From the IMG/VR virus record IMGVR_UViG_3300030060_003974, positions 44,684-64,683 of that record: 20,000 bases of DNA; one strand, 5' to 3'. Under the pieces are notes generated by a model that was given only the letters and a program-made list of their open reading frames with translations, did no database searches and was not told the origin of the DNA. A program made the translations under genes and the position numbers. This document shows positions 2 through 20,000 of this stretch, piece by piece (positions within the stretch are counted from its first letter, which is position 1; the number at the start of each line of letters is the position of its first letter). The stretch comes from an uncultured virus (IMG/VR IMGVR_UViG_3300030060_003974) (Duplodnaviria; Heunggongvirae; Uroviricota; Caudoviricetes).

Positions 2-3000
2 ATTGATAACTACCAAATTAATGAAAGAGGATTTATGCCATCTACGGTATTTGACGTAGGAAGATTAAAAAGAGAAGCAAAGGAATTTGGATATGGTGTA
101 AGAGTCGCAAGATACAGAGAGGGGTATAGAGCTGGAGAAATATCTGGGTATTACTTAACTAAAGGTGGTAAATTCTTTAATCCTCGTGCTAGATATCAAA
201 TGATAGATTCTAACAATCCTATTGAGGTTGTTGTTGATGCTAGAAAAAACAAAATATCAGACGCAGCTATAAAAATAAAGCTTAGAGCAGATGGGTTAAC
301 CACCTCTCAAATAGCTGCAGCTTTAGAAAACGCTGAACTTTTTGCAGACATAAGCACTCAAGTGCCTTCAGCCTTTTTAATTTTAGGTGATAAGGTTGGA
401 AGAAAAGTATATAAACGTGTAGTTGACTTTGTACAAAAAACAAATATAGAAAACGCTAAAAAGAAATACAGAATAAGCGATGCAGAAATGGCTGCTATAG
501 CTGATAAAAAAGAAAAGGCGTTAAGAAAAAAAGCTAAATTAAAATCTCCTGATACAATTAAAGATGAGATAGCTGACTTTACAGCAAGGATGAAAAAGAA
601 AAATCCAAAGCTTACTCAAGATGAATTGAATGAGTTGGCTGTAAAAAAAGCTAATGATATAAATAGAGTAGAAGAGAAGAAGCTTAATACAGTTAACAAA
701 GCCATGAGAAAGTTTCGTGAAGACCAGGTTAAAAGAAATAACTCTAAACCAGCTAAACTAACAAAGGCAGAAATTATTGATCAAGCCATAGAGGTTTTAC
801 AAACTGACCCTGCTTACATAGATGCTGCAGGTAAAGTAGAAGGTAAGTCAGACTTACAAAGTCTAATGGTGGATCAGCTAATTGTGGCGCTGTCTACCAA
901 AGCTGCGCTTGATACTAACACCAAGGTTGAACAAGCTAAACAAAGAATAAAAAAACAAACTAAAGGTAAGGTTAAGATAAACACTAAGAAAGATTTATTT
1001 TATACACAAACTCAGTTAATTAATTTAATTAAGAAAACCATACCAGCTGCTCAGTTTAACAAGAAGCAAGTTAAAGACCTTATGGCTAAGGTAAGAGATT
1101 TAGTGAAGCCAGGGATAAATGTAGAACAAATATTTGACGAGGTTGTTGCTGAAATAAACACTATCAATAGTAAAATTTTACAACAAGAAATGACTGGTAT
1201 ACTAACTAAAAAGTATGAGAGTAAAAGTGGTGGTGTAACTAAAGCAAAACAGATAATAGGTGATGTAGCGGCTAGAATCAAAAACATACTTAAAAACTCT
1301 TTAGTAGAAGAAAATAAAAACTTAGACCTAGCTGAATTAGACAACCAGGTGACTAAGAAAAATGCTCAGCTTCAAGATAGGATGAATGAATTAGAGGCTG
1401 AAATAAAAGGTACTCCAGAAAACGTTGAGGAGCTTGTAAACGAGATGGCTGATATACAATTAGCTATGATGATTAACAGCACTTTAACTTTAGAAGACAG
1501 CTCTACAGCTAAAGTACAAGAGTTAAGCGCTATATTACAAAACTTAGATGAGTTGCTAATAGATGGTAATACACAATTAAAACTTGCTAAACAAGCTCAG
1601 TATCAAGCCCATCTTGAAAATATCAATGCGGCATATGAAGCTATTACAGGGGAGAAATTAGATTTAGGTATAAAAGAAAACATAGAAAAGGCTAAGAAAA
1701 AAATTGCTGAGACTAAAACACAGAAAGAACAAAATGCTTCTAAGATATTTTTACTTAGTAGAATGATGAGTACAATAGCTTCAGGGTTAAGCTACTTCCG
1801 TGATGCTACTTCAGGTCTTTCATTATTGATGGAGAAAATTGATGTACTTCCTGGTGAATTGTTTGGTGGGGTGATGCAAGATTTAGTGTACGAAAAAATA
1901 AACGAATCTAGTTATGCTTTTAAACAGTTTCAGATTGATAATCAAAAAATGTTAGAAGACAAAGCTATTGAATTATTTGTAGACCCTAGGTTCTTAGGTA
2001 TCAAGAAACCCTCATTTATAAAAAGAAGACAGGCTCGTAACGCTTTGCGAGACATGAATATTCCTGCTAATAAAAAAGGAGGGTTACTAGGTAGGGCTGG
2101 AAGGAAACTAAGATCTATGTTTACTAGAGCGGGTGCAAAAGAAATTTATACCACTTTTACTAAAGGAGTTAGAAGAGATGCTGATGGTAACCCTATATTT
2201 AGAGACCAAGCTGCTGTTGACCAGGCGTTAGCTGATTATAAAAATGCTACAGGATTTTTTAACAGACTGCGTAAGAAAGCCATACTAAGAGGGGTGATGG
2301 ATAAAAACGTAATTGATTTAAGTGATGGACAAACTTATTATTTATACAATCAATACAAAGACCCTCGTAATCATATAAATTTTGAAAACTCTCCAGATAT
2401 TGGGAAGGATCATGCTCGTATTATGCAACAGCTTGAGGAGTCTATGTCAGATGAATTAAAAGCTTGGGCTGACTGGCAAGTGAATGAGCTTTATCCTTTT
2501 CTATATACAAGATATAACAGAGTGTTTAAGAAATTATACCACACTAATTTAAACTGGAATAGATACTATGCAGGTAGATTATATTTAGATGGAGTAGAAA
2601 GAGATGCTGTAAACTTAACAGGTAAACCTAATATTTATAAAAAAGATGGTGTTACAAGCGCATCTATGTTTGATAGAGTCCACCATAATAATGCTATTGA
2701 ACTAGCAAATGGTAATGATGTGTTGTCTACATACTTGACTGATATGGATTGGTTTGCTGCTTACGGAGAAAGTATAAACGAAATTAGTAAGATGTTTGGT
2801 AATTCAGTTATAGCTGGCGCAATAAAAGCTAAAGAAGGAAAATTCTTTTACGATACTGTTATTAAAATTATAGATGAAATAGCAGGTAGAGGAATACAAG
2901 CTTCAGGAGCAAATAAATTTATTAACGTAACAAATAACTTCTTCTTAACTACACGATTAGCTTTAACACCAATTCTTGCAATAAAACAATTATTATCTAC

Positions 3001-4282
3001 GGTAACGTATGTAGGAGATATTGGTGTAGTAAACTGGTTAAAATACGCAGGTATGATGACAGCAAACACTCTAACTTTTGGAAAGTTCGGTAAAGGTTTT
3101 GCGGGAGCTGCAAAAGAAATATTTGCAAACTCACCGTACATGAAAGACAGATACAGTGCAGGATTCCAAAGAACACTAGAGGCTTATGATGGAACAAAAG
3201 AAACAAGATTAGTAGGATCGAGTGGTCAATCGTATCTACAGTTTGTTATGGACTTTAACTTATTTTTCTCAAAGCTGGGTGATGCTGGAGCGATATTCTT
3301 AGGTGGTATTCCTAACTATTTGTACTTTAAAGAACAGGCTCGTAAGACTAACCCTGATGCTACAGAACAAGAAATTATTGATATTGCAATAAAGCAGTTT
3401 CAAAGAAACACTAAAAATACTCAGCAGTCTTCAGACCTTCAAGATAAAGATATTTACCAAATGGGAGGTAGCGCCTTAAGGTATTTAAATATGTTTAAAA
3501 CATCTCCTAAACAATATTTAAGAAACTCTATGTATTCACAGATACAATTAGGTAGAAAAATTGGAGCTGCAACCAAAGCAATATTCCAAGGTAAAAATCC
3601 CTTAACAGCGATGAGTCAAGCAGGAAAAGGAACATTTGCAGAAAACTTAAGAAACTGGTTCTTATACCACGTTACAATGCCTGTTAGTTTCCAGTACGTA
3701 AGTATGGGATTGCCTGGTTTATTAAAGCCAGAGTTTGATGATGAAGATATTAATGATTTAGCTAGAGCTGCTGTATTAGGTAATGTAAATGCTGTATTTA
3801 TTTTAGGTGACTTAATTAAAGCAGCTACAGATTTAACGATAGGAGGAAAAAGATATGGTGAAGATGCAGGTATCAATTTACCTATCTATGAGCTGTATGA
3901 AAACTTTGGTAAAAACTATGTAAAAATGATAACTGTAAAAGACCCTCAATTAAAATATTTCTATGCTGTAAAAGCTTTTGCTGGTATAGGAGACATGGTA
4001 GGTCTTCCAGGATCAAAAGGAGTTCAACTGTTCCATCATTTAGATAAAATAAGTAATGGACGAATAAGTAATAATGAAAAGTTAATGAGAGCTTTAGGAT
4101 TTAGCGAGTATATAGTAAAGCAAAGTTTCCCACAAGAAGAAAAACCACCTGTAGGGTTAACTAACAAAGAAAAAAGAGAGTGGAAAATAAAACAAGAACG
4201 AAAGAAAAGTGGTAAAGGCCCAGTCTTAACTAATAGGGAAAAAAGAGAAAAGAAAATGAGAGAAAAAAAGAAAAGAAAATAA
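2..4282 (+). CDS. Very large phage protein, probably 5'-truncated by the window; putative virion-associated/internal (ejection-type) protein
   Basis: The 1415-aa ORF from 35 has an open frame back to position 2 (ATT GAT AAC TAC ... TTT ATG). It has a helical K/E-rich N-half and a more hydrophobic C-terminal region, and lies on the opposite strand to the replication genes. Function is inferred from size and context only. Confidence 0.6.
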   Translation: MDNYQINERGFMPSTVFDVGRLKREAKEFGYGVRVARYREGYRAGEISGYYLTKGGKFFNPRARYQMIDSNNPIEVVVDARKNKISDAAIKIKLRADGLTTSQIAAALENAELFADISTQVPSAFLILGDKVGRKVYKRVVDFVQKTNIENAKKKYRISDAEMAAIADKKEKALRKKAKLKSPDTIKDEIADFTARMKKKNPKLTQDELNELAVKKANDINRVEEKKLNTVNKAMRKFREDQVKRNNSKPAKLTKAEIIDQAIEVLQTDPAYIDAAGKVEGKSDLQSLMVDQLIVALSTKAALDTNTKVEQAKQRIKKQTKGKVKINTKKDLFYTQTQLINLIKKTIPAAQFNKKQVKDLMAKVRDLVKPGINVEQIFDEVVAEINTINSKILQQEMTGILTKKYESKSGGVTKAKQIIGDVAARIKNILKNSLVEENKNLDLAELDNQVTKKNAQLQDRMNELEAEIKGTPENVEELVNEMADIQLAMMINSTLTLEDSSTAKVQELSAILQNLDELLIDGNTQLKLAKQAQYQAHLENINAAYEAITGEKLDLGIKENIEKAKKKIAETKTQKEQNASKIFLLSRMMSTIASGLSYFRDATSGLSLLMEKIDVLPGELFGGVMQDLVYEKINESSYAFKQFQIDNQKMLEDKAIELFVDPRFLGIKKPSFIKRRQARNALRDMNIPANKKGGLLGRAGRKLRSMFTRAGAKEIYTTFTKGVRRDADGNPIFRDQAAVDQALADYKNATGFFNRLRKKAILRGVMDKNVIDLSDGQTYYLYNQYKDPRNHINFENSPDIGKDHARIMQQLEESMSDELKAWADWQVNELYPFLYTRYNRVFKKLYHTNLNWNRYYAGRLYLDGVERDAVNLTGKPNIYKKDGVTSASMFDRVHHNNAIELANGNDVLSTYLTDMDWFAAYGESINEISKMFGNSVIAGAIKAKEGKFFYDTVIKIIDEIAGRGIQASGANKFINVTNNFFLTTRLALTPILAIKQLLSTVTYVGDIGVVNWLKYAGMMTANTLTFGKFGKGFAGAAKEIFANSPYMKDRYSAGFQRTLEAYDGTKETRLVGSSGQSYLQFVMDFNLFFSKLGDAGAIFLGGIPNYLYFKEQARKTNPDATEQEIIDIAIKQFQRNTKNTQQSSDLQDKDIYQMGGSALRYLNMFKTSPKQYLRNSMYSQIQLGRKIGAATKAIFQGKNPLTAMSQAGKGTFAENLRNWFLYHVTMPVSFQYVSMGLPGLLKPEFDDEDINDLARAAVLGNVNAVFILGDLIKAATDLTIGGKRYGEDAGINLPIYELYENFGKNYVKMITVKDPQLKYFYAVKAFAGIGDMVGLPGSKGVQLFHHLDKISNGRISNNEKLMRALGFSEYIVKQSFPQEEKPPVGLTNKEKREWKIKQERKKSGKGPVLTNREKREKKMREKKKRK

Positions 4283-4530
4283 TGTCACAGTTTGATGAGC
4301 ATAAATGTATGGATCAAAGCTATCAGGTAATTACTGGTAGAAAATCTTTTGAAGACCTTTTAGAAGAAGAGGAAGATGTGGCTCTTATGTTTAATCCTAC
4401 CCGACCAATTATAGTAATGGTAGATGATATCTACGACATACTAATAGATTACTTCGCCTCAATTGAGGAGTATGAAAAATGTCAAGAAATTTTAGATATA
4501 AAAAATTTAGCAAAGGCGATTCAAGAGTGA
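4282..4530 (+). CDS. Small phage protein with UVR (UvrB/C)-like motif
   Basis: ATG overlaps the upstream TAA (TAATG). C-terminal YFASIEEYEKCQEILDIK resembles the UVR motif (E.YE.A..IRD). Confidence 0.6.
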   Translation: MSQFDEHKCMDQSYQVITGRKSFEDLLEEEEDVALMFNPTRPIIVMVDDIYDILIDYFASIEEYEKCQEILDIKNLAKAIQE

Positions 4531-5777: not shown

Positions 5778-5958
5778 CAGATAGAGATTGAATTAAGTCA
5801 GCAAGAACTTTAATTAAATTTTGTGCCTTCTTCCTTGCTTCCTCATGCTCTCTATCCATTAAGTCTTCGTAGATATCATTTCCAAAGTCGTGAATACTAT
5901 TAGACACGAAGTTAATGTGGCTAATGGTATTAACGTCATCTCTGGAAACTCTAGACAT
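5767..5958 (-). CDS. Hypothetical protein
   Basis: 63-aa ORF with short overlaps to both co-oriented neighbours. Confidence 0.7.
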   Translation of the reverse strand: MSRVSRDDVNTISHINFVSNSIHDFGNDIYEDLMDREHEEARKKAQNLIKVLADLIQSLSDEI

Positions 5959-6373
5959 TTATTTTTTCTTGGATAGCTTTTATATTATTAGATAGTTCTT
6001 GTACTTGTAAATTTAGTAATTTATTTTGTTTAACCAAATTATTCACGGTGTTTTTAAGTAACACAGGATTTAGCTCAATGTATTCTTGACAGTCCATTTT
6101 CCATACTTGCATGGCTTTAGAATAGTTTCTGTTAAGGTTTTTATCTACTTCAACTTCATTTTTAAAATTTCTTAACGCAGACATTACAGTAACATGATTC
6201 ATACCGAATTGTTTTCCGATGAATTGATAAGTCATTCCTAACTCTTGTCTTAAAATAGCGTAACAAATAGCTCTAGCTTGAATAAATTCTGTTTTACGAC
6301 ATCTTAGAGAAGGATCTACTCCTAATATATCTTTAACTATTCCCTTTAAGGCGTTGGTCTTTGCAATATTCAT
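5951..6373 (-). CDS. DnaA C-terminal-like helix-turn-helix protein
   Basis: ARAICYAILRQELGMTYQFIGKQFGMNHVTVMSA matches the DnaA domain IV pattern (AR..AMYL.R......IG..F.RDHTTV). No AAA+ domain is present. Confidence 0.75.
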   Translation of the reverse strand: MNIAKTNALKGIVKDILGVDPSLRCRKTEFIQARAICYAILRQELGMTYQFIGKQFGMNHVTVMSALRNFKNEVEVDKNLNRNYSKAMQVWKMDCQEYIELNPVLLKNTVNNLVKQNKLLNLQVQELSNNIKAIQEKINV

Positions 6374-12419: not shown

Positions 12420-12821
12420 TTATTTTAATTTAATTAATTTGATTTTGTGTTTTGAGTATCTATTTAAAATACCCTCTCTTCTTGTTTTTAAATTCTGAAT
12501 GTGCTTGTCGTTTTTACGTGTGTTAACCTCAACTTTCATCTTGTTTTCAATCAGATCAAGTTTATGTAAGCAATTATTCATTGCAGTTATAACGCATCCA
12601 CGTTTCCACCCATTATTAAAAAAAACTTCATACTCGGTTTCGGTTAACTCCTGAAAGTAATCTCCACCTTTAGAACAATTAAGTATTTCTATATAGTCGG
12701 TAAACTTTTGCAACTTAACTCCCATATTTAAAAACGACTCTCCTCTACTCATAGTACAATAAATAGAAGATTTGTCTTCCTGTGCTTGTTCAAATATTTC
12801 TTGTAAACTATACTGCTTCAT
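12420..12821 (-). CDS. Hypothetical protein
   Basis: 133-aa ORF in a packed operon. Confidence 0.7.
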   Translation of the reverse strand: MKQYSLQEIFEQAQEDKSSIYCTMSRGESFLNMGVKLQKFTDYIEILNCSKGGDYFQELTETEYEVFFNNGWKRGCVITAMNNCLHKLDLIENKMKVEVNTRKNDKHIQNLKTRREGILNRYSKHKIKLIKLK

Positions 12822-13104
12822 TAATTGATTCTATAATATTTTTATAATCCTTATCGTTATCAATTGTCTGCTTTGCTTTTTTATATCCGTGAATGATGGT
12901 AGTGATGTGAACATCAAGACCAGCTTCAGACATAAATCTTTTTATATAAGCAACACGTATAGGTCTTTCCATGCATAAGTAGTAAAGCATTTGTCTTGCA
13001 TCTACTTTTTCTTGTTTCCTACTTTTGTCAAACATTTCATCTAAACTTAAATGAAACTGTTTTGATATAGCAGTAGCGTAGCTATTAAATATTTCTTTTT
13101 TCAT
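12808..13104 (-). CDS. Second DnaA C-terminal-like HTH protein
   Basis: F.LS..EM..KSR....VDARQMLYYLC and HITTIIHG match the DnaA domain IV pattern. Confidence 0.75.
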   Translation of the reverse strand: MKKEIFNSYATAISKQFHLSLDEMFDKSRKQEKVDARQMLYYLCMERPIRVAYIKRFMSEAGLDVHITTIIHGYKKAKQTIDNDKDYKNIIESINEAV

Positions 13105-13840: not shown

Positions 13841-14641
13841 TTATCCAAATATTATTGGTTGATTTCCTTTTCTATCTTTATGACAGTGATACTCAAACAC
13901 TTCTTTAAGTGTCTTCCCATAGTATTCGTTTAAACTATAGCATTCATACCACCCCTCTTCATATGTATCACAAGCATTGGTGTGTTCTGTGCGTAGGTAA
14001 GATACTTCACATAAAAACTTGTACCCCTCTTCATATTCTACTACTTTGGTTTCGTGATTGTATACTCCAGACATTTCTTTAATGACTCCTCTGTCGTTAA
14101 TAGCAAACTCTTTAGAATCATCCCAATGTGGCTCTTCATACTGTCCACCACCAATAAACTCTCCATCTTCATACTCCATCCATCCACCCCATCCTGATTC
14201 CTCTTCATAAAAATAAGAAAATCCTTTAACAAGTTTTGCAAACTCTAAGATTAACTCTTCATCAAGTGGACTCCAAGCAGTAGTAAAGACATAGGTTTTG
14301 GTGTCTTCGTGAAATTCGTTGTCATAGCAACCCCACTTTGTACCCCAATTATCTAACGCCCAAGCATACCAATTATCAACTCCATATTTGGATTTGAATT
14401 TATTAGACATTTCTAAGGTTATCCCTGTGTTCCATATTCTCTCGCCTGACTCTCTTTTCTTCTCTTGATCCTGATATTCCTTTTCAGAAATAATAGTAGC
14501 TGGAGAGCTGGTGTGGTTTAACTCTTTAGGCATTGGATAAAGGTATTCAGCTAAACCTCTTTCTAGTTTTGCAATTTTTTTAAGTAGTTTGCAATCTTCT
14601 TTACTGTCCAATTGAATTGAACAAAAAACGTGATTAGGCAT
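13841..14641 (-). CDS. DUF1281/YubB ferredoxin-like domain protein
   Basis: MPNHV start, NWYAWALDNWGTKWG and FTTAWSP motifs characteristic of this family. Confidence 0.8.
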   Translation of the reverse strand: MPNHVFCSIQLDSKEDCKLLKKIAKLERGLAEYLYPMPKELNHTSSPATIISEKEYQDQEKKRESGERIWNTGITLEMSNKFKSKYGVDNWYAWALDNWGTKWGCYDNEFHEDTKTYVFTTAWSPLDEELILEFAKLVKGFSYFYEEESGWGGWMEYEDGEFIGGGQYEEPHWDDSKEFAINDRGVIKEMSGVYNHETKVVEYEEGYKFLCEVSYLRTEHTNACDTYEEGWYECYSLNEYYGKTLKEVFEYHCHKDRKGNQPIIFG

Positions 14642-14676
14642 AATATTATATTTAAATTAAACTTCGATTCGTTATC

Positions 14677-14721
14677 TACCACGAAAAGCCCGACACATTT
14701 ACGTGCCGAGCTATTCGCAGA
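14677..14721 (-). ncRNA. Unidentified structured RNA motif, copy 2
   Basis: UCUGCGAAU-AGCUCGGCAC-GUAAAU-GUGUCGGGCU-UUUCGUGGUA; aligns with copy 1 at 16931-16977 with compensatory changes. Confidence 0.6.
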
Positions 14722-14732
14722 ACAAACCACAA

Positions 14733-14828
14733 TTATAAACATTTACTCAATACTATCAATATGAATGTTATTACTACTCCTAAAAAAGAATAGAATGTTG
14801 CTTTTGCTTTATCTTCGTATTTACTCAT
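14733..14828 (-). CDS. Small membrane protein, 31 aa (MSKYEDKAKATFYSFLGVVITFILIVLSKCL), not in ORF track
   Basis: Translated by hand; overlaps the upstream stop by 8 nt; single hydrophobic segment. Confidence 0.6.
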   Translation of the reverse strand: MSKYEDKAKATFYSFLGVVITFILIVLSKCL

Positions 14829-15359: not shown

Positions 15360-15535
15360 AATTTTAAATGTTTAGGGTCGTAATTTTTACCATCTTGATA
15401 TTCGAGGATTGCATAAACATCTGCTTTGTTATCATAAGCAAACTTCATTGCCTCTTTTTTAGTTTCAAATTCATAGTCATTCTCTATGTAATCTCCACTC
15501 TCTGTGTACTCTCGTAATTCTACTATATAATTCAT
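15356..15535 (-). CDS. Hypothetical protein
   Basis: ORF track start is 15541; ATG at 15535 is preferred because it gives the same 19-nt post-cleavage leader as three other ribozyme copies. Confidence 0.7.
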   Translation of the reverse strand: MNYIVELREYTESGDYIENDYEFETKKEAMKFAYDNKADVYAILEYQDGKNYDPKHLKL

Positions 15536-15548
15536 ATTCATATGTTTT

Positions 15549-15646
15549 GGTTAATAAGGAAGATGATACGACATATAATCATCTATTACATTGTTGGTTT
15601 CTCCTAACAACAACCTTTTCGGATATTGAATCCTCATCAGTTAACC
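15549..15646 (-). ncRNA. Hammerhead ribozyme type I (HH7), UUA cleavage triplet, branched stem III
   Basis: GGUUAA-CUGAUGA-GGAU-UCAAU-AUCC-GAAA-AGG-[54-nt insert]-CCU-UA-UUAACC; predicted cut between 15555 and 15554. Confidence 0.85.
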
Positions 15647-16296
15647 TCTATTGATTTAATTATTTCCTCGCATAGCTGAGGTGGTATCTTGCTTCTCTCG
15701 TGATTACCTTTTAGTCCCTGTGTACCTGTTTGGCTTCCTCTTGGTGCTGGTGTATGACACGAGTCCCCATTCTTACACATTGGTCGTGGAGTCCATCCCA
15801 TATCGTTAGTCCAAATGTCAGTAGGTTTCATTCTTGAGTCGCCATATTGACAATAGGTAACAGTTTCTCTTCTGTGTTTCATATCCTCCCAATGAGGTGC
15901 TTTTCTCATTTTACCTCTTGGGTTTTCTACGTACCACAATAGCTTTGGATTCTTGTCTAGATAATCAGAAATGATTCCTAATGTTTTCTCGAAGATTTTT
16001 AAGCCGATCATCTCAGGATCACGAGGGGTAAAATTCTCTCCTGACACCCATTTCTTACCTATACAGGCAACAGAAAAATCAGTACAGGGTGGAGATGCCC
16101 AAATGACATCAGGAATCCACAACTCATCTAACTCTCCTACATTCATTTCATTCATACGATAGTCCCAATCCATAATATCGCCCACCCAATTTGTATTGGG
16201 ATAAGCTACATTATCAACAGAGAATACCTCGTGACCACGTTGCTCGGCAACTTTGCCTACACTACGTGAACCACTAAATAGTTCTAGTATTTTCAT
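15637..16296 (-). CDS. DNA (cytosine-5) methyltransferase
   Basis: Motif I ILELFSGS, catalytic motif IV WASPPC, motif VI VENP, YCQYG..RMKPT.IW. Confidence 0.88.
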   Translation of the reverse strand: MKILELFSGSRSVGKVAEQRGHEVFSVDNVAYPNTNWVGDIMDWDYRMNEMNVGELDELWIPDVIWASPPCTDFSVACIGKKWVSGENFTPRDPEMIGLKIFEKTLGIISDYLDKNPKLLWYVENPRGKMRKAPHWEDMKHRRETVTYCQYGDSRMKPTDIWTNDMGWTPRPMCKNGDSCHTPAPRGSQTGTQGLKGNHERSKIPPQLCEEIIKSIEVN

Positions 16297-16309
16297 AATT
16301 GTTGGTTTT

Positions 16310-16389
16310 GATTAAGACACAAGAGTAATAAGCTACCANNNNNNNNNNCACCTCTTGTGTTTCGGACATCAAGTCCTCATCAGTTAATC
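16310..16389 (-). ncRNA. Hammerhead ribozyme type I (HH6)
   Basis: GAUUAA-CUGAUGA-GGAC-UUGAU-GUCC-GAAA-CACAAGAG-[loop containing N gap]-CUCUUGUG-UC-UUAAUC; predicted GUC cut between 16316 and 16315. Confidence 0.9.
16339..16348. other. Assembly gap (10 N)
   Basis: Run of n inside the stem III loop of HH6. Confidence 1.
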
Positions 16390-16626
16390 TGTTTTGTATT
16401 TATCAACTAAATTTTCTAATGCATATATGTATTTAAATATATGGTCGCTTTTGTTTAGTTCATCTTGATACGCTTGGCTAAAAACGTATATCTCTTCTGC
16501 ATCTAACTCTACTGACAAATGGCGTTCATTAAAATCAGTGAATTCAGGCTCATATATATACTCTAAAATTTTGTTAGATAAATGAATCATTTGTTCCTCT
16601 TGAAAAGGAGTAAGTTTGTTTTTCAT
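16384..16626 (-). CDS. Hypothetical protein
   Basis: 80-aa ORF; its TAA forms the end of the HH6 stem I 5' strand. Confidence 0.75.
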   Translation of the reverse strand: MKNKLTPFQEEQMIHLSNKILEYIYEPEFTDFNERHLSVELDAEEIYVFSQAYQDELNKSDHIFKYIYALENLVDKYKTD

Positions 16627-16907
16627 AATTTAATTGTTTTATATTCATCTAGATATTTGTCCCACAAAACGCTACCTGTTCTAATTAAATGTTTATTCGT
16701 TTCTGATAATCCATCAATCGAAAATCCATCTACAGACAGGATAAAGTTTGTGTCTTTGGTTTTGTATTCTTTCATAATCAATTTGATACAGTAAGATACA
16801 TAATCTAAATCTAATTCTCTGTCATAAGGTACTATGTCAATGAAATCAGATTTTCCAAATCCAGAATCTATTTGAATGTTATTATTACTATTAATTTTTT
16901 CTTTCAT
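16623..16907 (-). CDS. Hypothetical protein
   Basis: 94-aa ORF with the shared ACUAUCAAAUUAUG leader. Confidence 0.75.
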   Translation of the reverse strand: MKEKINSNNNIQIDSGFGKSDFIDIVPYDRELDLDYVSYCIKLIMKEYKTKDTNFILSVDGFSIDGLSETNKHLIRTGSVLWDKYLDEYKTIKL

Positions 16908-16930
16908 AATTTGATAGTGTTATTGGTTTG

Positions 16931-16977
16931 TACCACCAAAACCCCAACACGTTTTACTGTGTTGAGGTAAGGGCAGA
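16931..16977 (-). ncRNA. Unidentified structured RNA motif, copy 1
   Basis: UCUGCCCUU-ACCUCAACAC-AGUAAAAC-GUGUUGGGGU-UUUGGUGGUA, flanked by GUUUGU/ACAAAC (16988-16983 with 16931-16926). Confidence 0.6.
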
Positions 16978-16992
16978 TAATCACAAACTAAA

Positions 16993-17238
16993 TCAGGATG
17001 CGTTTAAGGGCGATTCTATATTGTACTCGCCATCCATAATAATTGCATCAATAATTTCTTCTTCATAATTGTATAGGACATCAGTGACATCATCTCCATT
17101 GAGAATCATTTTATCTATTGTAATCTCCTCAATAGGTGGGGAATCATAACTTCCTGACTCAACGTAGTGTTCGTAATAAACTTCTACTACATTGTTTTCG
17201 GACAGTTCCCAATCGAATTGTAATTTAGTAGCTTTCAT
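16993..17238 (-). CDS. Hypothetical acidic protein
   Basis: 81-aa D/E-rich ORF containing G.YD.PP. Confidence 0.75.
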   Translation of the reverse strand: MKATKLQFDWELSENNVVEVYYEHYVESGSYDSPPIEEITIDKMILNGDDVTDVLYNYEEEIIDAIIMDGEYNIESPLNAS

Positions 17239-17240
17239 AA

Positions 17241-17495
17241 TTATAATGTTGGTATTGTTTCATAACCTTTGATTGTAGTGAACAACGCACCACCATCATT
17301 ACCCTCATCATCCATAGATGAATAGAGCCAAAACTTCTCGCCTTTTTTGTTTTCCATTAACATACATAAAGGAGATTTGTACCACATCATGTCTTCTACT
17401 ACTTCTTCAGACATATACTCGACTTTAATTATCTTACATCCTAAAAGATGTTTCTTTGCTAAATCAGTCCAACGTGTTTCTGTGTTTGTATTCAT
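17241..17495 (-). CDS. Hypothetical phage protein
   Basis: 84-aa ORF with C-terminal SMDDEGNDGGALFT; follows HH5. Confidence 0.75.
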   Translation of the reverse strand: MNTNTETRWTDLAKKHLLGCKIIKVEYMSEEVVEDMMWYKSPLCMLMENKKGEKFWLYSSMDDEGNDGGALFTTIKGYETIPTL

Positions 17496-17516
17496 TTTTG
17501 ATAGTATTATAGGTTT

Positions 17517-17571
17517 GTAAATGACACCTACATTGTAGGTGTTTCGGATATTTAATCCTCATCAGATTTAC
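17517..17571 (-). ncRNA. Hammerhead ribozyme type I (HH5)
   Basis: GUAAAU-CUGAUGA-GGAU-UAAAU-AUCC-GAAA-CACCUAC-AAU-GUAGGUG-UC-AUUUAC; predicted GUC cut between 17523 and 17522. Confidence 0.93.
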
Positions 17572-17722
17572 TTTCTCTTAGATTTTCTCTTGCGATTGCA
17601 TTCTCTTTTGCTCGACAATATACACTGTAGTGATTTTCACGTACATAATCCATAAAGTCAGTATAAAAAAGAATATCATCTTCTAAATTTAAGAGGTCTG
17701 TTGTCCATAGTTTTGTTTTCAT
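17552..17722 (-). CDS. Hypothetical protein, 56 aa (MKTKLWTTDLLNLEDD...RESKSDED), not in ORF track
   Basis: Translated by hand; ATGA overlap with the upstream gene. Its last codons read through the HH5 core and it stops in loop II. Confidence 0.65.
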   Translation of the reverse strand: MKTKLWTTDLLNLEDDILFYTDFMDYVRENHYSVYCRAKENAIARENLRESKSDED

Positions 17723-18132
17723 TTCTTAAAGGTTTTAATAAAGTTATTTACTGTATCATCAAATTTAATTTGATAATCATAATCTCGCATTTGTATACGA
17801 ATTTTGTTGTCACTATTTGCATAAACAAAATATGTATATTCTTCCCAACAGTCATTGCTATTAGGTAGATTAACATAAATATTTCCACGTGGATTATCGT
17901 TTTTTAACGCACATAATGTTAGAGCAGTTAACTCTTCCATCCCATTGGCGTATTTCACTGAGGCAGATGCTTCATTATGAATAACTCCATTGGTCAACGT
18001 AAATTGTTGCAGAATCTCTGCTAATTCAACTCCGTGTGCATCAGGATAACCATCATAGTGTCTATACATAGTTAATAAAGTAGAAGAACCTCTTCCACCA
18101 TTTTCGAAATGTGTTAAACTTCGTGTTCCCAT
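17719..18132 (-). CDS. Conserved hypothetical phage protein (MGTRS...HYDGYP...EYTY type)
   Basis: 137-aa ORF with a motif set seen in many small phage proteins; function unknown. Confidence 0.8.
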   Translation of the reverse strand: MGTRSLTHFENGGRGSSTLLTMYRHYDGYPDAHGVELAEILQQFTLTNGVIHNEASASVKYANGMEELTALTLCALKNDNPRGNIYVNLPNSNDCWEEYTYFVYANSDNKIRIQMRDYDYQIKFDDTVNNFIKTFKK

Positions 18133-18150
18133 AATTGATAGTTTTTATGT

Positions 18151-18209
18151 ATTATAAGACACCTGTGTTTGACAGGCGTTTCGGATTTTAAATCCTCATC
18201 AGTTATAAT
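18151..18209 (-). ncRNA. Hammerhead ribozyme type I (HH4)
   Basis: AUUAUAA-CUGAUGA-GGAU-UUAAA-AUCC-GAAA-CGCCUGU-CAAAC-ACAGGUG-UC-UUAUAAU. A G-U wobble in stem III pairs only on the - strand. Predicted cut between 18158 and 18157. Confidence 0.93.
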
Positions 18210-18517
18210 TGAAATTGTCTAAGAAAATATCTGTACAGGTTTTTGACTCCTACTATTCTATTCTTCCACTGAGCATCTTGTGTTTTGTAAGTTCTAGTGG
18301 TTGTGTCATAGAAGACATTTCCTGAACAATACCATTGATGAAAATGGTATCTTCTAAGATTAGATTTATTCGGTTTACCTTTTAAATCGTATTCAGCGAT
18401 TTTATCTTCAGTTAATTTATCTTTAACCTCTTGTAAACTCCACTTGTATCCATCCTCTTCAAAAAACTCTTGATAGAATCGAAGAAACTTGATACTGTAA
18501 TTGAATTGATTGTACAT
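18203..18517 (-). CDS. Hypothetical protein
   Basis: 104-aa ORF flanked by HH3 and HH4. Confidence 0.75.
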   Translation of the reverse strand: MYNQFNYSIKFLRFYQEFFEEDGYKWSLQEVKDKLTEDKIAEYDLKGKPNKSNLRRYHFHQWYCSGNVFYDTTTRTYKTQDAQWKNRIVGVKNLYRYFLRQFQL

Positions 18518-18530
18518 AATTGATAGTTTT

Positions 18531-18586
18531 GATTAGGACACCTGTTCGCACAGGTGTTTCGGATACTGAATCCTCATCAGCTAATC
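18531..18586 (-). ncRNA. Hammerhead ribozyme type I (HH3)
   Basis: GAUUAG-CUGAUGA-GGAU-UCAGU-AUCC-GAAA-CACCUGU-GCGA-ACAGGUG-UC-CUAAUC; GNRA tetraloop on stem III; predicted cut between 18537 and 18536. Confidence 0.95.
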
Positions 18587-18702
18587 TCAATGTAGAAAAT
18601 CCACATTCCAACATAAAATATCAACCCTAGAAAAACTAGGAAGAATAATTCATAGAAGAAATTGATTGGGTCTTCTTTGATAGATTTAAAAAATTCTCTC
18701 AT
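18577..18702 (-). CDS. Small membrane protein, 41 aa (MREFFKSIKEDPINFFYELFFLVFLGLIFYVGMWIFYIEIS), not in ORF track
   Basis: Translated by hand; one strongly hydrophobic segment. Its TGA stop is the first UGA of the HH3 CUGAUGA core. Confidence 0.7.
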   Translation of the reverse strand: MREFFKSIKEDPINFFYELFFLVFLGLIFYVGMWIFYIEIS

Positions 18703-18720
18703 AATTAATTGTTTTAGTTA

Positions 18721-19113
18721 TTAAAATTTGATTGTCCCTTTACTGTTAACCTCATTGTAATGAGAATCCTTAAACTCTTCTACAAGGAATTCTCTATCTT
18801 CATCACTCAAGATGTTATGCCAGATGAATTCAAACTTCCTGTCGTGAATCGTATCGTGATAGTGATGATGCTCATACAATTTGTCATATCGTTCAACCTC
18901 TCTTTTATGTCTAGCTTCAACTGTCTCTACACGTTGCAGTGCTTCATCCAATTGAATCTGTCTATTTTTGGCTAAACTTGTCCATTGTAAAAGTCCATAG
19001 AGCATCTCAATTTTTGAGGTTTTAAGTGCCTCTTGGACATCTTCCTCAGTATGCTGAGGAAAGTGTCTTAAGAGCATCTCTTTGTCAATAATAATATCAG
19101 TATTTATTTTCAT
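18721..19113 (-). CDS. Hypothetical protein
   Basis: 130-aa ORF; ATGA overlap with the upstream gene. Confidence 0.75.
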   Translation of the reverse strand: MKINTDIIIDKEMLLRHFPQHTEEDVQEALKTSKIEMLYGLLQWTSLAKNRQIQLDEALQRVETVEARHKREVERYDKLYEHHHYHDTIHDRKFEFIWHNILSDEDREFLVEEFKDSHYNEVNSKGTIKF

Positions 19114-19358
19114 AATTTGTTAATTAGATTCAGTGCTTTTTTAATTGTTTTCGCAGTATATTGTGCGTTCTGAAAGTGGAAATAATCTTCGCCAATATTG
19201 GCTAGAAATTCTAGATTCCATTTAACAACATCTAAAGCATTTTTAGAATCGGTTCTTGTGTAACCCTTACTGCACTTTGCAGTAGGTTTTGATGTGTTGA
19301 TGACTGTGCTTTTAGACACTAAATCTTCACACATCTTAAAATACTCATTGTAATTCAT
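19110..19358 (-). CDS. Hypothetical protein
   Basis: 82-aa ORF following HH2. Confidence 0.75.
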   Translation of the reverse strand: MNYNEYFKMCEDLVSKSTVINTSKPTAKCSKGYTRTDSKNALDVVKWNLEFLANIGEDYFHFQNAQYTAKTIKKALNLINKL

Positions 19359-19371
19359 ATTTGATAGTTTT

Positions 19372-19475
19372 GATTAAGACACCTCAGGTCAAAATAGCCA
19401 AATCTGTGATCAGATTTTCGGTCATTTTAACCTGTAAAATAGGTGTTTCGGATAATAAATCCTCATCAGTTAATC
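19372..19475 (-). ncRNA. Hammerhead ribozyme type I (HH2) with long stem III extension
   Basis: GAUUAA-CUGAUGA-GGAU-UUAUU-AUCC-GAAA-CACCU-[56-nt hairpin insert]-AGGUG-UC-UUAAUC; predicted cut between 19378 and 19377. Confidence 0.92.
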
Positions 19476-19877
19476 TTCATCTTCATCTTCATCATCATCT
19501 TCGATTTCAATGTCCCAAGCATCACAAATATCTCGTTTGAGATAGTCGTCATCCTCCCATCTTTCAGCAACCATATTGAAGATATCTTCATCCATATAGA
19601 TTTTGTTATCTTCTTCAAAGTTATATGCGTATGAATTTTTCATAAACGCATCACAGATTGCCTCCAGTAGATTGTCATCATAGTAGTACACATCTTCAAG
19701 TATGCTTGTTTTACCACTCATATCATCAGTAAAAATATAGACATCATAACTGTCTGCAGTTTCCTGTGAATGAATCATATAATCTAGCCCACTAAAATCA
19801 TTATCTGTAATTTCTAATGGAAGATGTTCGTTAACAAATTGCTTGAATGTTAGTACATTTAACTCGTAAGTTTTCAT
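19470..19877 (-). CDS. Highly acidic hypothetical protein
   Basis: 135-aa D/E-rich ORF ending EIEDDDEDEDED, flanked by HH1 and HH2. Confidence 0.8.
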   Translation of the reverse strand: MKTYELNVLTFKQFVNEHLPLEITDNDFSGLDYMIHSQETADSYDVYIFTDDMSGKTSILEDVYYYDDNLLEAICDAFMKNSYAYNFEEDNKIYMDEDIFNMVAERWEDDDYLKRDICDAWDIEIEDDDEDEDED

Positions 19878-19899
19878 AATTTGATAGTTTATTGTGATT

Positions 19900-19955
19900 A
19901 TTATAAGACACCTCTTTCAAGGTGTTTCGGATTTTGAATCCTCATCAGTTATAAT
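19900..19955 (-). ncRNA. Hammerhead ribozyme type I (HH1)
   Basis: AUUAUAA-CUGAUGA-GGAU-UCAAA-AUCC-GAAA-CACCU-UGAAAG-AGGUG-UC-UUAUAAU; predicted GUC cut between 19907 and 19906. Confidence 0.95.
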
Positions 19956-20000
19956 GGTTAAGCATTGTTAATCGCACCCTCATAAGAGGTTAGATTATTA

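What the first reader, a model, noticed from the sequence alone, without database searches (positions are those of the whole stretch)
15535..19906. Ribozyme cleavage would give downstream genes a standardised short, SD-less leader
Seen in sequence: predicted post-cleavage leaders are UUAAUC-AAAAC-UAUCAAAU-AUG (HH2), CUAAUC-AAAAC-UAUCAAUU-AUG (HH3), UUAAUC-AAAAC-CAACAAUU-AUG (HH6) and UUAACC-AAAAC-AUAUGAAU-AUG (HH7, using the 15535 start). All four are exactly 19 nt. HH4, HH5 and HH1 give 25, 27 and 29 nt and share ACUAUCAA just before the AUG. Established: Bacteroidota mostly initiate translation on unstructured A-rich leaders without SD pairing, and 5'-OH ends resist 5'-monophosphate-stimulated decay (RNase E/J type). 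Inference: cleavage frees the initiation region from stem I and creates stable, uniform 5' ends, like the ribozyme insulators used in synthetic biology.
Basis: partly seen in the sequence, partly recalled or inferred. Interest (0 to 1): 0.7.

Follow-up and report, generated by a model that had tools for sequence, protein, structure and literature searches.

The report
Phage hammerheads cutting just before genes
Seven self-cutting RNAs sit between the early genes of an uncultured bacterial virus and would cut 19 to 29 bases before the next start codon, just outside the host's normal A-rich start signal; this is a known kind of phage arrangement, and the spacing has a minimum but no fixed standard.

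Summary
Seven type I hammerheads lie on the minus strand of a probable Bacteroidota phage, with an eighth site elsewhere in the genome. Cut-to-AUG distances are 29, 19, 19, 25, 27, 19 and 19 nt, and an orthologue confirms the 15535 start. Among 306 phage hammerheads, 226 cut 18-33 nt before an AUG but only 20 at exactly 19, and orthologous leaders drift by 1-4 nt. The spacing is a floor: stem I ends at least 12-13 nt before the AUG, next to the Bacteroidia A-12/A-13 start signal. SD-less leaders are a host trait. Only 2 of 72 genes in the genome have an SD word, ribozyme-free genes show the same profile, and 94 of 292 hammerhead leaders elsewhere do carry an SD. Cleavage barely opens the start region (median 0.5 kcal/mol). 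A 5'-OH end does not block RNase J, but RNase J was not found in 61 flavobacterial genomes, so stabilisation stays plausible. Best reading: protein-free, T7-like processing of one early transcript into 3'-hairpin messages with native-length leaders. Such clusters were described by Perreault 2011, and this scan noted the same layout in other genomes. No RNA data were found.

The parts
19900..19955 (-). HH1 type I hammerhead (stems 7/5/7 bp, GUC, cut between 19907 and 19906)
   Evidence: a second allele with a longer stem III and the same 29-nt leader lies at the other end of the contig
19878..19906 (-). 29-nt post-cleavage leader of the 135-aa gene (AUG 19877)
   Evidence: orthologues 29, 27, 25 nt
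19372..19475 (-). HH2 type I hammerhead with a long stem III insert; the upstream stop codon lies in the 5' arm of stem I
   Evidence: MFE fold is the hammerhead, z -5.9
19359..19377 (-). 19-nt leader of the 82-aa gene (AUG 19358)
   Evidence: orthologues 21 and 20 nt
18531..18586 (-). HH3 type I hammerhead; the upstream stop is the UGA of the core
   Evidence: z -3.2
18518..18536 (-). 19-nt leader of the 104-aa gene (AUG 18517); this gene and one ribozyme are absent from L132 and L133
18151..18209 (-). HH4 type I hammerhead (stems 7/5/8 bp)
   Evidence: z -3.1
18133..18157 (-). 25-nt leader of the 137-aa gene (AUG 18132)
   Evidence: orthologues 22 and 22 nt
17517..17571 (-). HH5 type I hammerhead; the upstream 56-aa ORF reads through the core and stops in loop II
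   Evidence: z -4.0
17496..17522 (-). 27-nt leader of the 84-aa gene (AUG 17495)
   Evidence: orthologues 29, 29, 29, 27 nt
16310..16389 (-). HH6 type I hammerhead (part of the stem III loop is undetermined in the window)
16297..16315 (-). 19-nt leader of the DNA methyltransferase gene (AUG 16296)
   Evidence: 19 nt in three relatives, no ribozyme in L454
15549..15646 (-). HH7 type I hammerhead, weakest copy (UUA triplet, 4-bp stem III with a branched insert; the MFE fold is not the hammerhead)
   Evidence: z -1.7; orthologue in L454
15536..15554 (-). 19-nt leader of the 59-aa gene (AUG 15535)
16905..17000 (-). Long non-hammerhead hairpin followed by a leader with the same ACUAUCAA word (AUG 16907)
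   Evidence: z -3.0; conserved in L132 and L134
14640..14745 (-). Long imperfect hairpin before the 266-aa gene; candidate RNase III-type processing site (inference)
   Evidence: z -6.0; conserved in L132 and L133

Best explanation
The hammerheads are protein-free processing sites in one long early transcript that starts at a Bacteroidota-type -7 promoter upstream of the array. Each is packed between the previous stop codon and the next gene's ordinary Bacteroidia start signal. Cleavage (inferred from an intact core; not assayed) leaves stems II and III and a cyclic phosphate on the 3' end of the upstream message. The downstream message gets a 5'-OH, unstructured leader made of the 6-7-nt stem I arm plus at least 12-13 nt of the host's A-rich start region. 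The leader length is bounded, not standardised. The floor exists because stem I does not intrude on A-13..-1 (shown as a pattern; the cause is inferred), and the loose ceiling reflects compact packing. The look-alike words in this genome's leaders come from copying and exchange between paralogous ribozyme-plus-leader units (shown by hybrids in relatives). The likely benefit is 1-4-gene messages with independent lifetimes and ribosome access, as with RNase III cuts in T7 early RNA (inferred).
For: Intact cores and three stems in 7 of 7. One TAHHTTTG at genome position 1253 upstream of the array; the two inside it lie in coding sequence. 226 of 306 homologues at 18-33 nt; 15 of the 20 shorter ones have a later in-frame AUG. 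The floor moves with stem I: 26 of 175 six-bp stems give 19 nt or less, against 0 of 30 stems of 7 bp or more (Fisher p 0.017). A at -3, -12, -13 in 0.81, 0.89, 0.75 of 175 SD-less leaders, the positions shown to raise translation in F. johnsoniae (PMC6847099). Ribozyme-free genes have the same profile. SD-less median 23 nt, against a native median 5' UTR of 24 nt in a Flavobacterium (PMC9723704). Upstream stop within -13..+16 of the core in 243 of 345. Ribozyme-gene units gained or lost in relatives, with hybrid leaders. Clustered phage hammerheads cleave in vitro and in E. coli (PMC3088659).
Against: No RNA evidence for cleavage, ends, stability or translation in this phage. The same genes occur without a ribozyme in relatives (methyltransferase in L454). 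A related phage with similar genes in this region gave no hammerhead call in the 20.9 kb examined (L131), so any benefit is not essential. The stem-length effect rests partly on related contigs and is not corrected for kinship. Start codons were called by a first-AUG rule. 41 of 347 ribozymes had no qualifying AUG within 100 nt. The host is inferred.
Confidence: 0.62

Rival explanations
1. One reading: cleavage is a translation-activating insulator. The uncut ribozyme hinders initiation, and cutting creates a uniform, stable 5' end that boosts the downstream gene.
For: For the shortest class (18-20 nt, n=42) cleavage lowers the opening energy of -19..+12 by a median 2.0 kcal/mol. HH4 in this genome gains 4.7 kcal/mol. 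RNase J was found in 0 of 61 and RNase E/G in 61 of 61 genomes of the likely host family. RNase E/G prefers 5'-monophosphate ends (recalled). Type I hammerheads in 5' UTRs of fungal RNA viruses need self-cleavage for translation (PMC13725137). The haloviral HHphage lies 13 nt before a start codon and near a mapped 5' end (PMC3088659). In L246 two ribozymes have an SD word in the stem I arm.
Against: Lengths are not uniform (20 of 306 at 19 nt; orthologues drift). The median gain for -13..+12 is only 0.46 kcal/mol over 226 ribozymes, and 0.2 or less for HH1, HH3, HH6 and HH7. Upstream flanks pair with their own leaders less than permuted flanks do (-2.53 against -2.87 kcal/mol). A ribosome terminating on the upstream gene would melt stem I anyway (inference).
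Confidence: 0.2
2. The ribozyme-plus-leader repeats are mainly recombination handles or mildly selfish insertions. They persist because cutting at this position does no harm. The floor is simply the closest place where they do not damage the start signal.
For: Three unit gains or losses among G000, L132 and L133. L132 and L133 have an HH3-type arm joined to an HH4-type leader tail. The same stem III insert occurs at HH1 in one allele and at HH5 in L134. ACUAUCAA occurs in 13 of 306 homologous leaders, 12 of them in close relatives of this phage.
Against: Recombination does not need an intact catalytic core or covarying stems, and both are kept. The copies differ in stems I and III.
Confidence: 0.1
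3. Translation-gated processing or decay timer. Ribosomes finishing the upstream gene keep the ribozyme unfolded, so cutting happens when translation falls and serves to uncouple or shut down early genes.
For: In all 7 window copies the upstream stop lies in or next to the ribozyme, and one ORF reads through the core. The stop is within -7..+3 of the core in 177 of 345 homologues. A 5'-OH ribozyme product is destabilised in B. subtilis.
Against: The overlap is also explained by compact packing and by UAA/UGA being part of the stem and core words. No RNase J was found in the likely host family.
Confidence: 0.08

Closest known systems
Clustered hammerhead ribozymes flanking single genes or short blocks in phages and prophages (Perreault et al. 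2011, PMC3088659)
   Same: Several hammerheads between genes of one phage transcript, variable gene content, proposed processing into short mRNAs. One haloviral example lies 13 nt before a start codon.
   Different: Here there are eight type I sites in a probable Bacteroidota phage. The passages I read give no distribution of cut-to-AUG distance and no link to the A-12/A-13 start signal.
RNase III processing of the T7 early transcript (as summarised in PMC4858673)
   Same: One early polycistronic RNA is cut at several intergenic structures into mono- and dicistronic messages. [quoted passage not shown]
   Different: T7 uses a host protein enzyme, which leaves 5'-phosphate ends. Here the RNA cuts itself and leaves 5'-OH.
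RiboJ ribozyme insulator (PMC6206723)
   Same: Self-cleavage removes upstream RNA and defines a 5' end ahead of the start region.
   Different: RiboJ leaves a hairpin at the 5' end of the downstream message and makes ends identical. These type I ribozymes leave the hairpins on the upstream message, and their leaders vary from 19 to 29 nt.
[quoted passage not shown]
   Same: Type I topology upstream of a coding region. Self-cleavage was needed for translation in a reporter.
   Different: Eukaryotic cap-independent initiation in RNA viruses. No such test exists for these DNA phage copies.
glmS ribozyme
   Same: Bacterial self-cleavage upstream of a gene, leaving a 5'-OH message.
   Different: It is metabolite-dependent and destabilising through RNase J1. 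No RNase J was found in the likely host family here.

Membership tests
Type I hammerhead ribozyme | Core CUGANGA ... GAAA ... NUH around a three-way junction | tested here: met
   7 of 7 window copies; six GUC, one UUA
Type I hammerhead ribozyme | Stems II and III closed by loops, stem I open, with covarying pairs | tested here: met
   Stems of 6-7, 4-5 and 4-9 bp; 15 of 17 pairs change on both sides in 31 copies chosen for pairing
Type I hammerhead ribozyme | Match to a curated Rfam hammerhead model | tested here: not met
   No hammerhead family at E up to 1 in the window or E up to 10 in genome 1-2200. This is a limit of the models (inference), because the core and stems are complete.
Type I hammerhead ribozyme | Tertiary contact between stem I and loop II that gives fast cleavage | tested here: inconclusive
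   A flanks stem I on both sides (0.82 and 0.87 of 306), and the commonest loop II sequences of the 6-bp class are five nucleotides that begin and end with U. The contact was not modelled, and there is no extended stem I.
Type I hammerhead ribozyme | Self-cleavage at the predicted bond | not testable with these tools
   Needs an in vitro assay
Clustered phage hammerheads (Perreault 2011) | Several ribozymes flanking single genes or short gene blocks in a phage genome | tested here: met
   Eight sites in the early arm; terminase, portal and virion genes in the genome
Clustered phage hammerheads (Perreault 2011) | Identity of the flanked genes not constant | tested here: met
   Gains, losses and swaps among G000, L132, L133, L435 and L454
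RiboJ-type insulator | Identical 5' end on every downstream gene | tested here: not met
   Leaders of 19-29 nt here; 20 of 306 at 19 nt elsewhere
RiboJ-type insulator | Protective hairpin retained on the downstream message | tested here: not met
   Type I topology leaves stems II and III upstream of the cut
RiboJ-type insulator | Higher or context-independent expression after cleavage | not testable with these tools
   Needs reporters
Bacteroidia SD-less start region | No SD; A at -3, -6, -12, -13 | tested here: met
   All 8 ribozyme leaders have A at -3, -12 and -13, but only 2 of 8 at -6; genome-wide 2 of 72 genes have an SD word

The most novel reading that the evidence does not exclude
Phage type I hammerheads are natural makers of imitation transcription starts. 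In hosts without RNase J they turn one promoter's transcript into many messages whose 5'-OH leaders match native 5' UTR length, resist RNase E/G and translate better. The cut is set one Bacteroidia start-signal length from the AUG, and the processed RNA unit coincides with the unit in which early genes are exchanged between phages.
Probability: 0.3. Interest if true: 0.65.

Novelty: new member of a known kind. Interest (0 to 1): 0.36.

Why it matters
The function of bacterial and phage self-cleaving ribozymes is largely open; the 2019 review calls glmS the only well-understood case (PMC6765202). The spacing rule measured here gives a cheap test in Flavobacterium johnsoniae: vary catalysis and stem-to-AUG distance separately. 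If cleavage stabilises or boosts the downstream message, it would assign a job to a very common phage element and supply compact expression parts for Bacteroidota. The arrangement itself is already known.

Tried and rejected
Rfam gave no hammerhead or other convincing family. RNA evidence: no RNA holder was listed, and laying three same-sample metatranscriptome contig sets gave one 34-nt partial piece and nothing usable; this says nothing about expression. Named prokaryote genomes: 31 pattern matches, of which only 6 loci held full hammerheads, too few and too uncertain in origin to sort leaders by host phylum. Extended stem I pairing that would hide the leader: rejected, because own flanks pair less than all 30 permutations. 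Generic-hairpin control: 90 of 200 predicted non-hammerhead hairpins end under 12 nt from an AUG, against 20 of 306 for stem I; the control is noisy because MFE folds extend into A/U leaders, so I give it little weight. The stop-to-AUG control (51% of 345 gaps under 18 nt) compares unlike distances and is used only as context. The 13-nt start for HH7 was rejected. Circular monomers: by eye only 2 of 7 neighbouring arm pairs are complementary, and Perreault 2011 detected no circles; not pursued. No polynucleotide kinase or RNA ligase family was found among the 69 ORFs scanned, one of them overlapping another. Sigma-70 promoter scan was at chance level (45 against 48.5). Literature searches listed no paper giving cut-to-start distances for phage hammerheads; the library lacks most subscription journals, and I did not read the supplements of Perreault 2011, whose alignment file may hold related sequences.
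Full report
Setting. The window is the last 20 kb of a 64,683-nt virus record whose two ends overlap by about 390 nt with strain differences. The genome encodes a terminase, portal, virion proteins, endolysin, GroEL and GroES on the plus strand. Small unknown genes, a DNA methyltransferase, an exonuclease, a primase-like protein and a helicase lie on the minus strand. A Bacteroidota host is inferred. Only 2 of 72 genes have an SD-like word, and A is found at -3, -12 and -13 in 0.69, 0.69 and 0.61 of genes against a background of 0.33. A TAHHTTTG box, the -7 promoter consensus given in PMC6847099 (passages), lies at genome position 1253 ahead of the early arm. The 797-aa primase-like protein matches an uncultured spring phage over its length and Flavobacterium, Polaribacter, Maribacter and Bacteroides phages in part.

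The observation. The rest of the genome adds an eighth site with a 26-nt leader and an allele of HH1 with a longer stem III but the same 29-nt leader. HH2-HH5 fold as hammerheads in the minimum-energy structure (z -3.1 to -5.9). HH1 (z -2.7) forms stems II and III but not stem I in that structure, and HH7 (z -1.7) does not fold as a hammerhead; HH6 was not in that fold set. Rfam does not recognise them. For HH7 the 15535 start is right: it has A at all four favoured positions, and the orthologue in L454 has no upstream AUG.

Is 19 a standard? The scanner made 525 calls, and 0 in shuffled loci. These reduce to 362 distinct ribozymes; 347 have enough downstream sequence, and 306 of those have an AUG opening 35 or more codons within 100 nt. 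Of the 306, 226 lie at 18-33 nt, 60 are longer, 20 are shorter and 20 are exactly 19. Fifteen of the 20 short ones have a later in-frame AUG at 18-50 nt. With one ribozyme per locus the figures are 140, 16 and 9 of 206 for 18-33, under 18 and exactly 19. So the distance is constrained, with a sharp lower edge, but it is not fixed. Orthologues agree. The HH2 gene has 19, 21 and 20 nt; the HH4 gene 25, 22 and 22; the HH5 gene 27, 29, 29, 29 and 27; the HH1 gene 29, 29, 27 and 25. The leaders that stay constant are the methyltransferase (19 in four genomes), the HH7 gene (19 in two) and the 66-aa gene (26 in two).

What sets the floor. Ribozymes with a 6-bp stem I pile up from 18-19 nt, and those with 7-8 bp from 20-21 nt. 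Among leaders of 12-33 nt, 26 of 175 six-bp stems give 19 or less, against 0 of 30 longer stems (p 0.017, not corrected for kinship). The free distance from the end of stem I to the AUG therefore starts at 12-13 nt. In 175 SD-less leaders of 18-40 nt, A is at -3, -11, -12 and -13 in 0.81, 0.78, 0.89 and 0.75. These are the positions that raise translation in F. johnsoniae (PMC6847099 passages; PMC13000457 passages). A 19-nt leader is thus the 6-nt stem arm plus the 13-nt host start signal: the tightest packing without overlap. The SD-less median of 23 nt is close to the native median 5' UTR of 24 nt in F. psychrophilum (PMC9723704 passages).

What the ribozyme does not supply. The SD-less, A-rich character belongs to the host. 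In 227 ribozyme-free, low-GC, SD-less genes of the same loci, A is at -3, -12 and -13 in 0.67, 0.74 and 0.72. Of 292 hammerhead leaders of 12 nt or more, 94 carry an SD word, with a median of 30 nt. The word ACUAUCAA also precedes the ribozyme-free gene at 16907. It occurs in 13 of 306 homologous leaders, 12 of them in close relatives, so it is a lineage repeat. In L454 the methyltransferase has no ribozyme, while another gene that lacks one here has gained one with a 19-nt leader.

Does cleavage free the start region? Computed opening energy for -13..+12 falls by a median 0.46 kcal/mol on cleavage, and for -19..+12 by 0.94 (n=226). For the 18-20-nt class (n=42) the figures are 0.93 and 1.96. 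In this genome the -13..+12 change is 0.2 or less for HH1, HH3, HH6 and HH7, 0.4 for HH2, 1.6 for HH5 and 4.7 for HH4. Upstream flanks pair with their own leaders less than permuted flanks do. A modest effect on the shortest leaders is possible; a switch is not indicated. These are secondary-structure estimates that ignore tertiary contacts.

Stability. The claim about RNase J is wrong as stated: the 5'-OH product of glmS is degraded by RNase J1 (PMC11780869 passages). But RNase J passed the family cut-off in 0 of 61 genomes sampled from the family of Flavobacterium sp. LPB0248, while RNase E/G did in 61 of 61. With the 5'-monophosphate preference of RNase E/G (recalled, not checked in Bacteroidota), a stabilising 5'-OH remains plausible. 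Unlike RiboJ, which leaves a hairpin on the downstream RNA (PMC6206723 passages), type I topology leaves stems II and III at the 3' end of the upstream message, where they could slow 3' exonucleases (inference).

Upstream side and gene traffic. The upstream stop lies within -13..+16 of the core in 243 of 345 ribozymes, and within -7..+3 in 177. In the window it is in the stem I arm (HH2, HH4, HH6), in the core (HH3, HH7) or in loop II (HH5). Relatives differ by whole units. L132 and L133 lack the 104-aa gene and carry an HH3-type arm joined to an HH4-type leader tail. L133 lacks the 66-aa gene and HH1. Both lack HH7 and its gene. One stem III insert appears at different sites in different genomes. 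This explains the shared leader words by copying and crossover.

Comparison with what is known. Perreault et al. 2011 (passages and the first results section) described hammerheads flanking single genes or blocks in prophages, showed cleavage of three such clusters, and proposed processing into short mRNAs. They also noted a haloviral hammerhead 13 nt before a start codon. The 2019 review (passages and its bacteria section) lists altered stability or translation as suggested but unproven. T7 does the same job with RNase III (PMC4858673 passages). Type I hammerheads aid translation in fungal RNA viruses (PMC13725137 abstract and Discussion). PMC10085705 (passages) says the reason for the phage association is still unknown. 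Five searches listed no paper with the distance distribution; supplements were not read. Six earlier notes of this scan report the same layout in other genomes.

Verdict. These are real ribozymes with real but loose spacing, in a known kind of arrangement. Shown: the anatomy, the floor, its fit to the host start signal, the drift among orthologues and the unit exchange. Inferred: cleavage in vivo, the benefit, and the host.

Noticed in passing
G000 about 1240-1090, minus strand (L130); L133 3407-3535; L475: A conserved, structured leader of about 130-150 nt lies between the -7 promoter and the first early gene. It has an invariant 21-nt core in three genomes, a variable internal hairpin, and a 3' end that shares about 20 nt with the end of the first hammerhead. 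No Rfam match; only 2 exact hits of the core in the viral collection; function unexplained.
   Followed up: partly
window 16905-17000 and 14640-14745, minus strand: Two long non-hammerhead hairpins sit at other junctions of the same early arm and are conserved in relatives; they may be RNase III-type processing sites.
   Followed up: partly
window 15221-15198, minus strand: A terminator-like hairpin with a U run lies inside the end of a 61-aa ORF, two genes after HH7; it may end the ribozyme-punctuated transcript.
   Followed up: no
G000 1-392 against window about 19650-20000: The contig ends overlap with strain differences; the two HH1 alleles differ by a 43-nt insert in stem III, and nearly the same insert sits at HH5 in L134.
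   Followed up: partly
L246 about 2500 and 3194 on the minus strand: Two hammerheads have an SD word inside the 3' arm of stem I with AUGs at 15 and 10 nt.
   Followed up: no
window 17552-17722, minus strand: The 56-aa ORF reads through the whole catalytic core of HH5 and stops in loop II; the same ending is kept in L132 and L133.
   Followed up: partly
G000 2149-4368 and 18656-19225: The phage encodes GroEL, GroES and a second GroES-like protein.
   Followed up: no
window 5951-6373 and 12808-13104, minus strand: Two small proteins match the DnaA C-terminal helix-turn-helix.
   Followed up: no
L131 (MW202828.1 40000-60850): The closest annotated phage by the primase-like protein gave no hammerhead call in this stretch.
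   Followed up: partly
L199: Several intergenic hairpins followed by one repeated word occur before genes without a hammerhead core, perhaps another cassette-type repeat.
   Followed up: no
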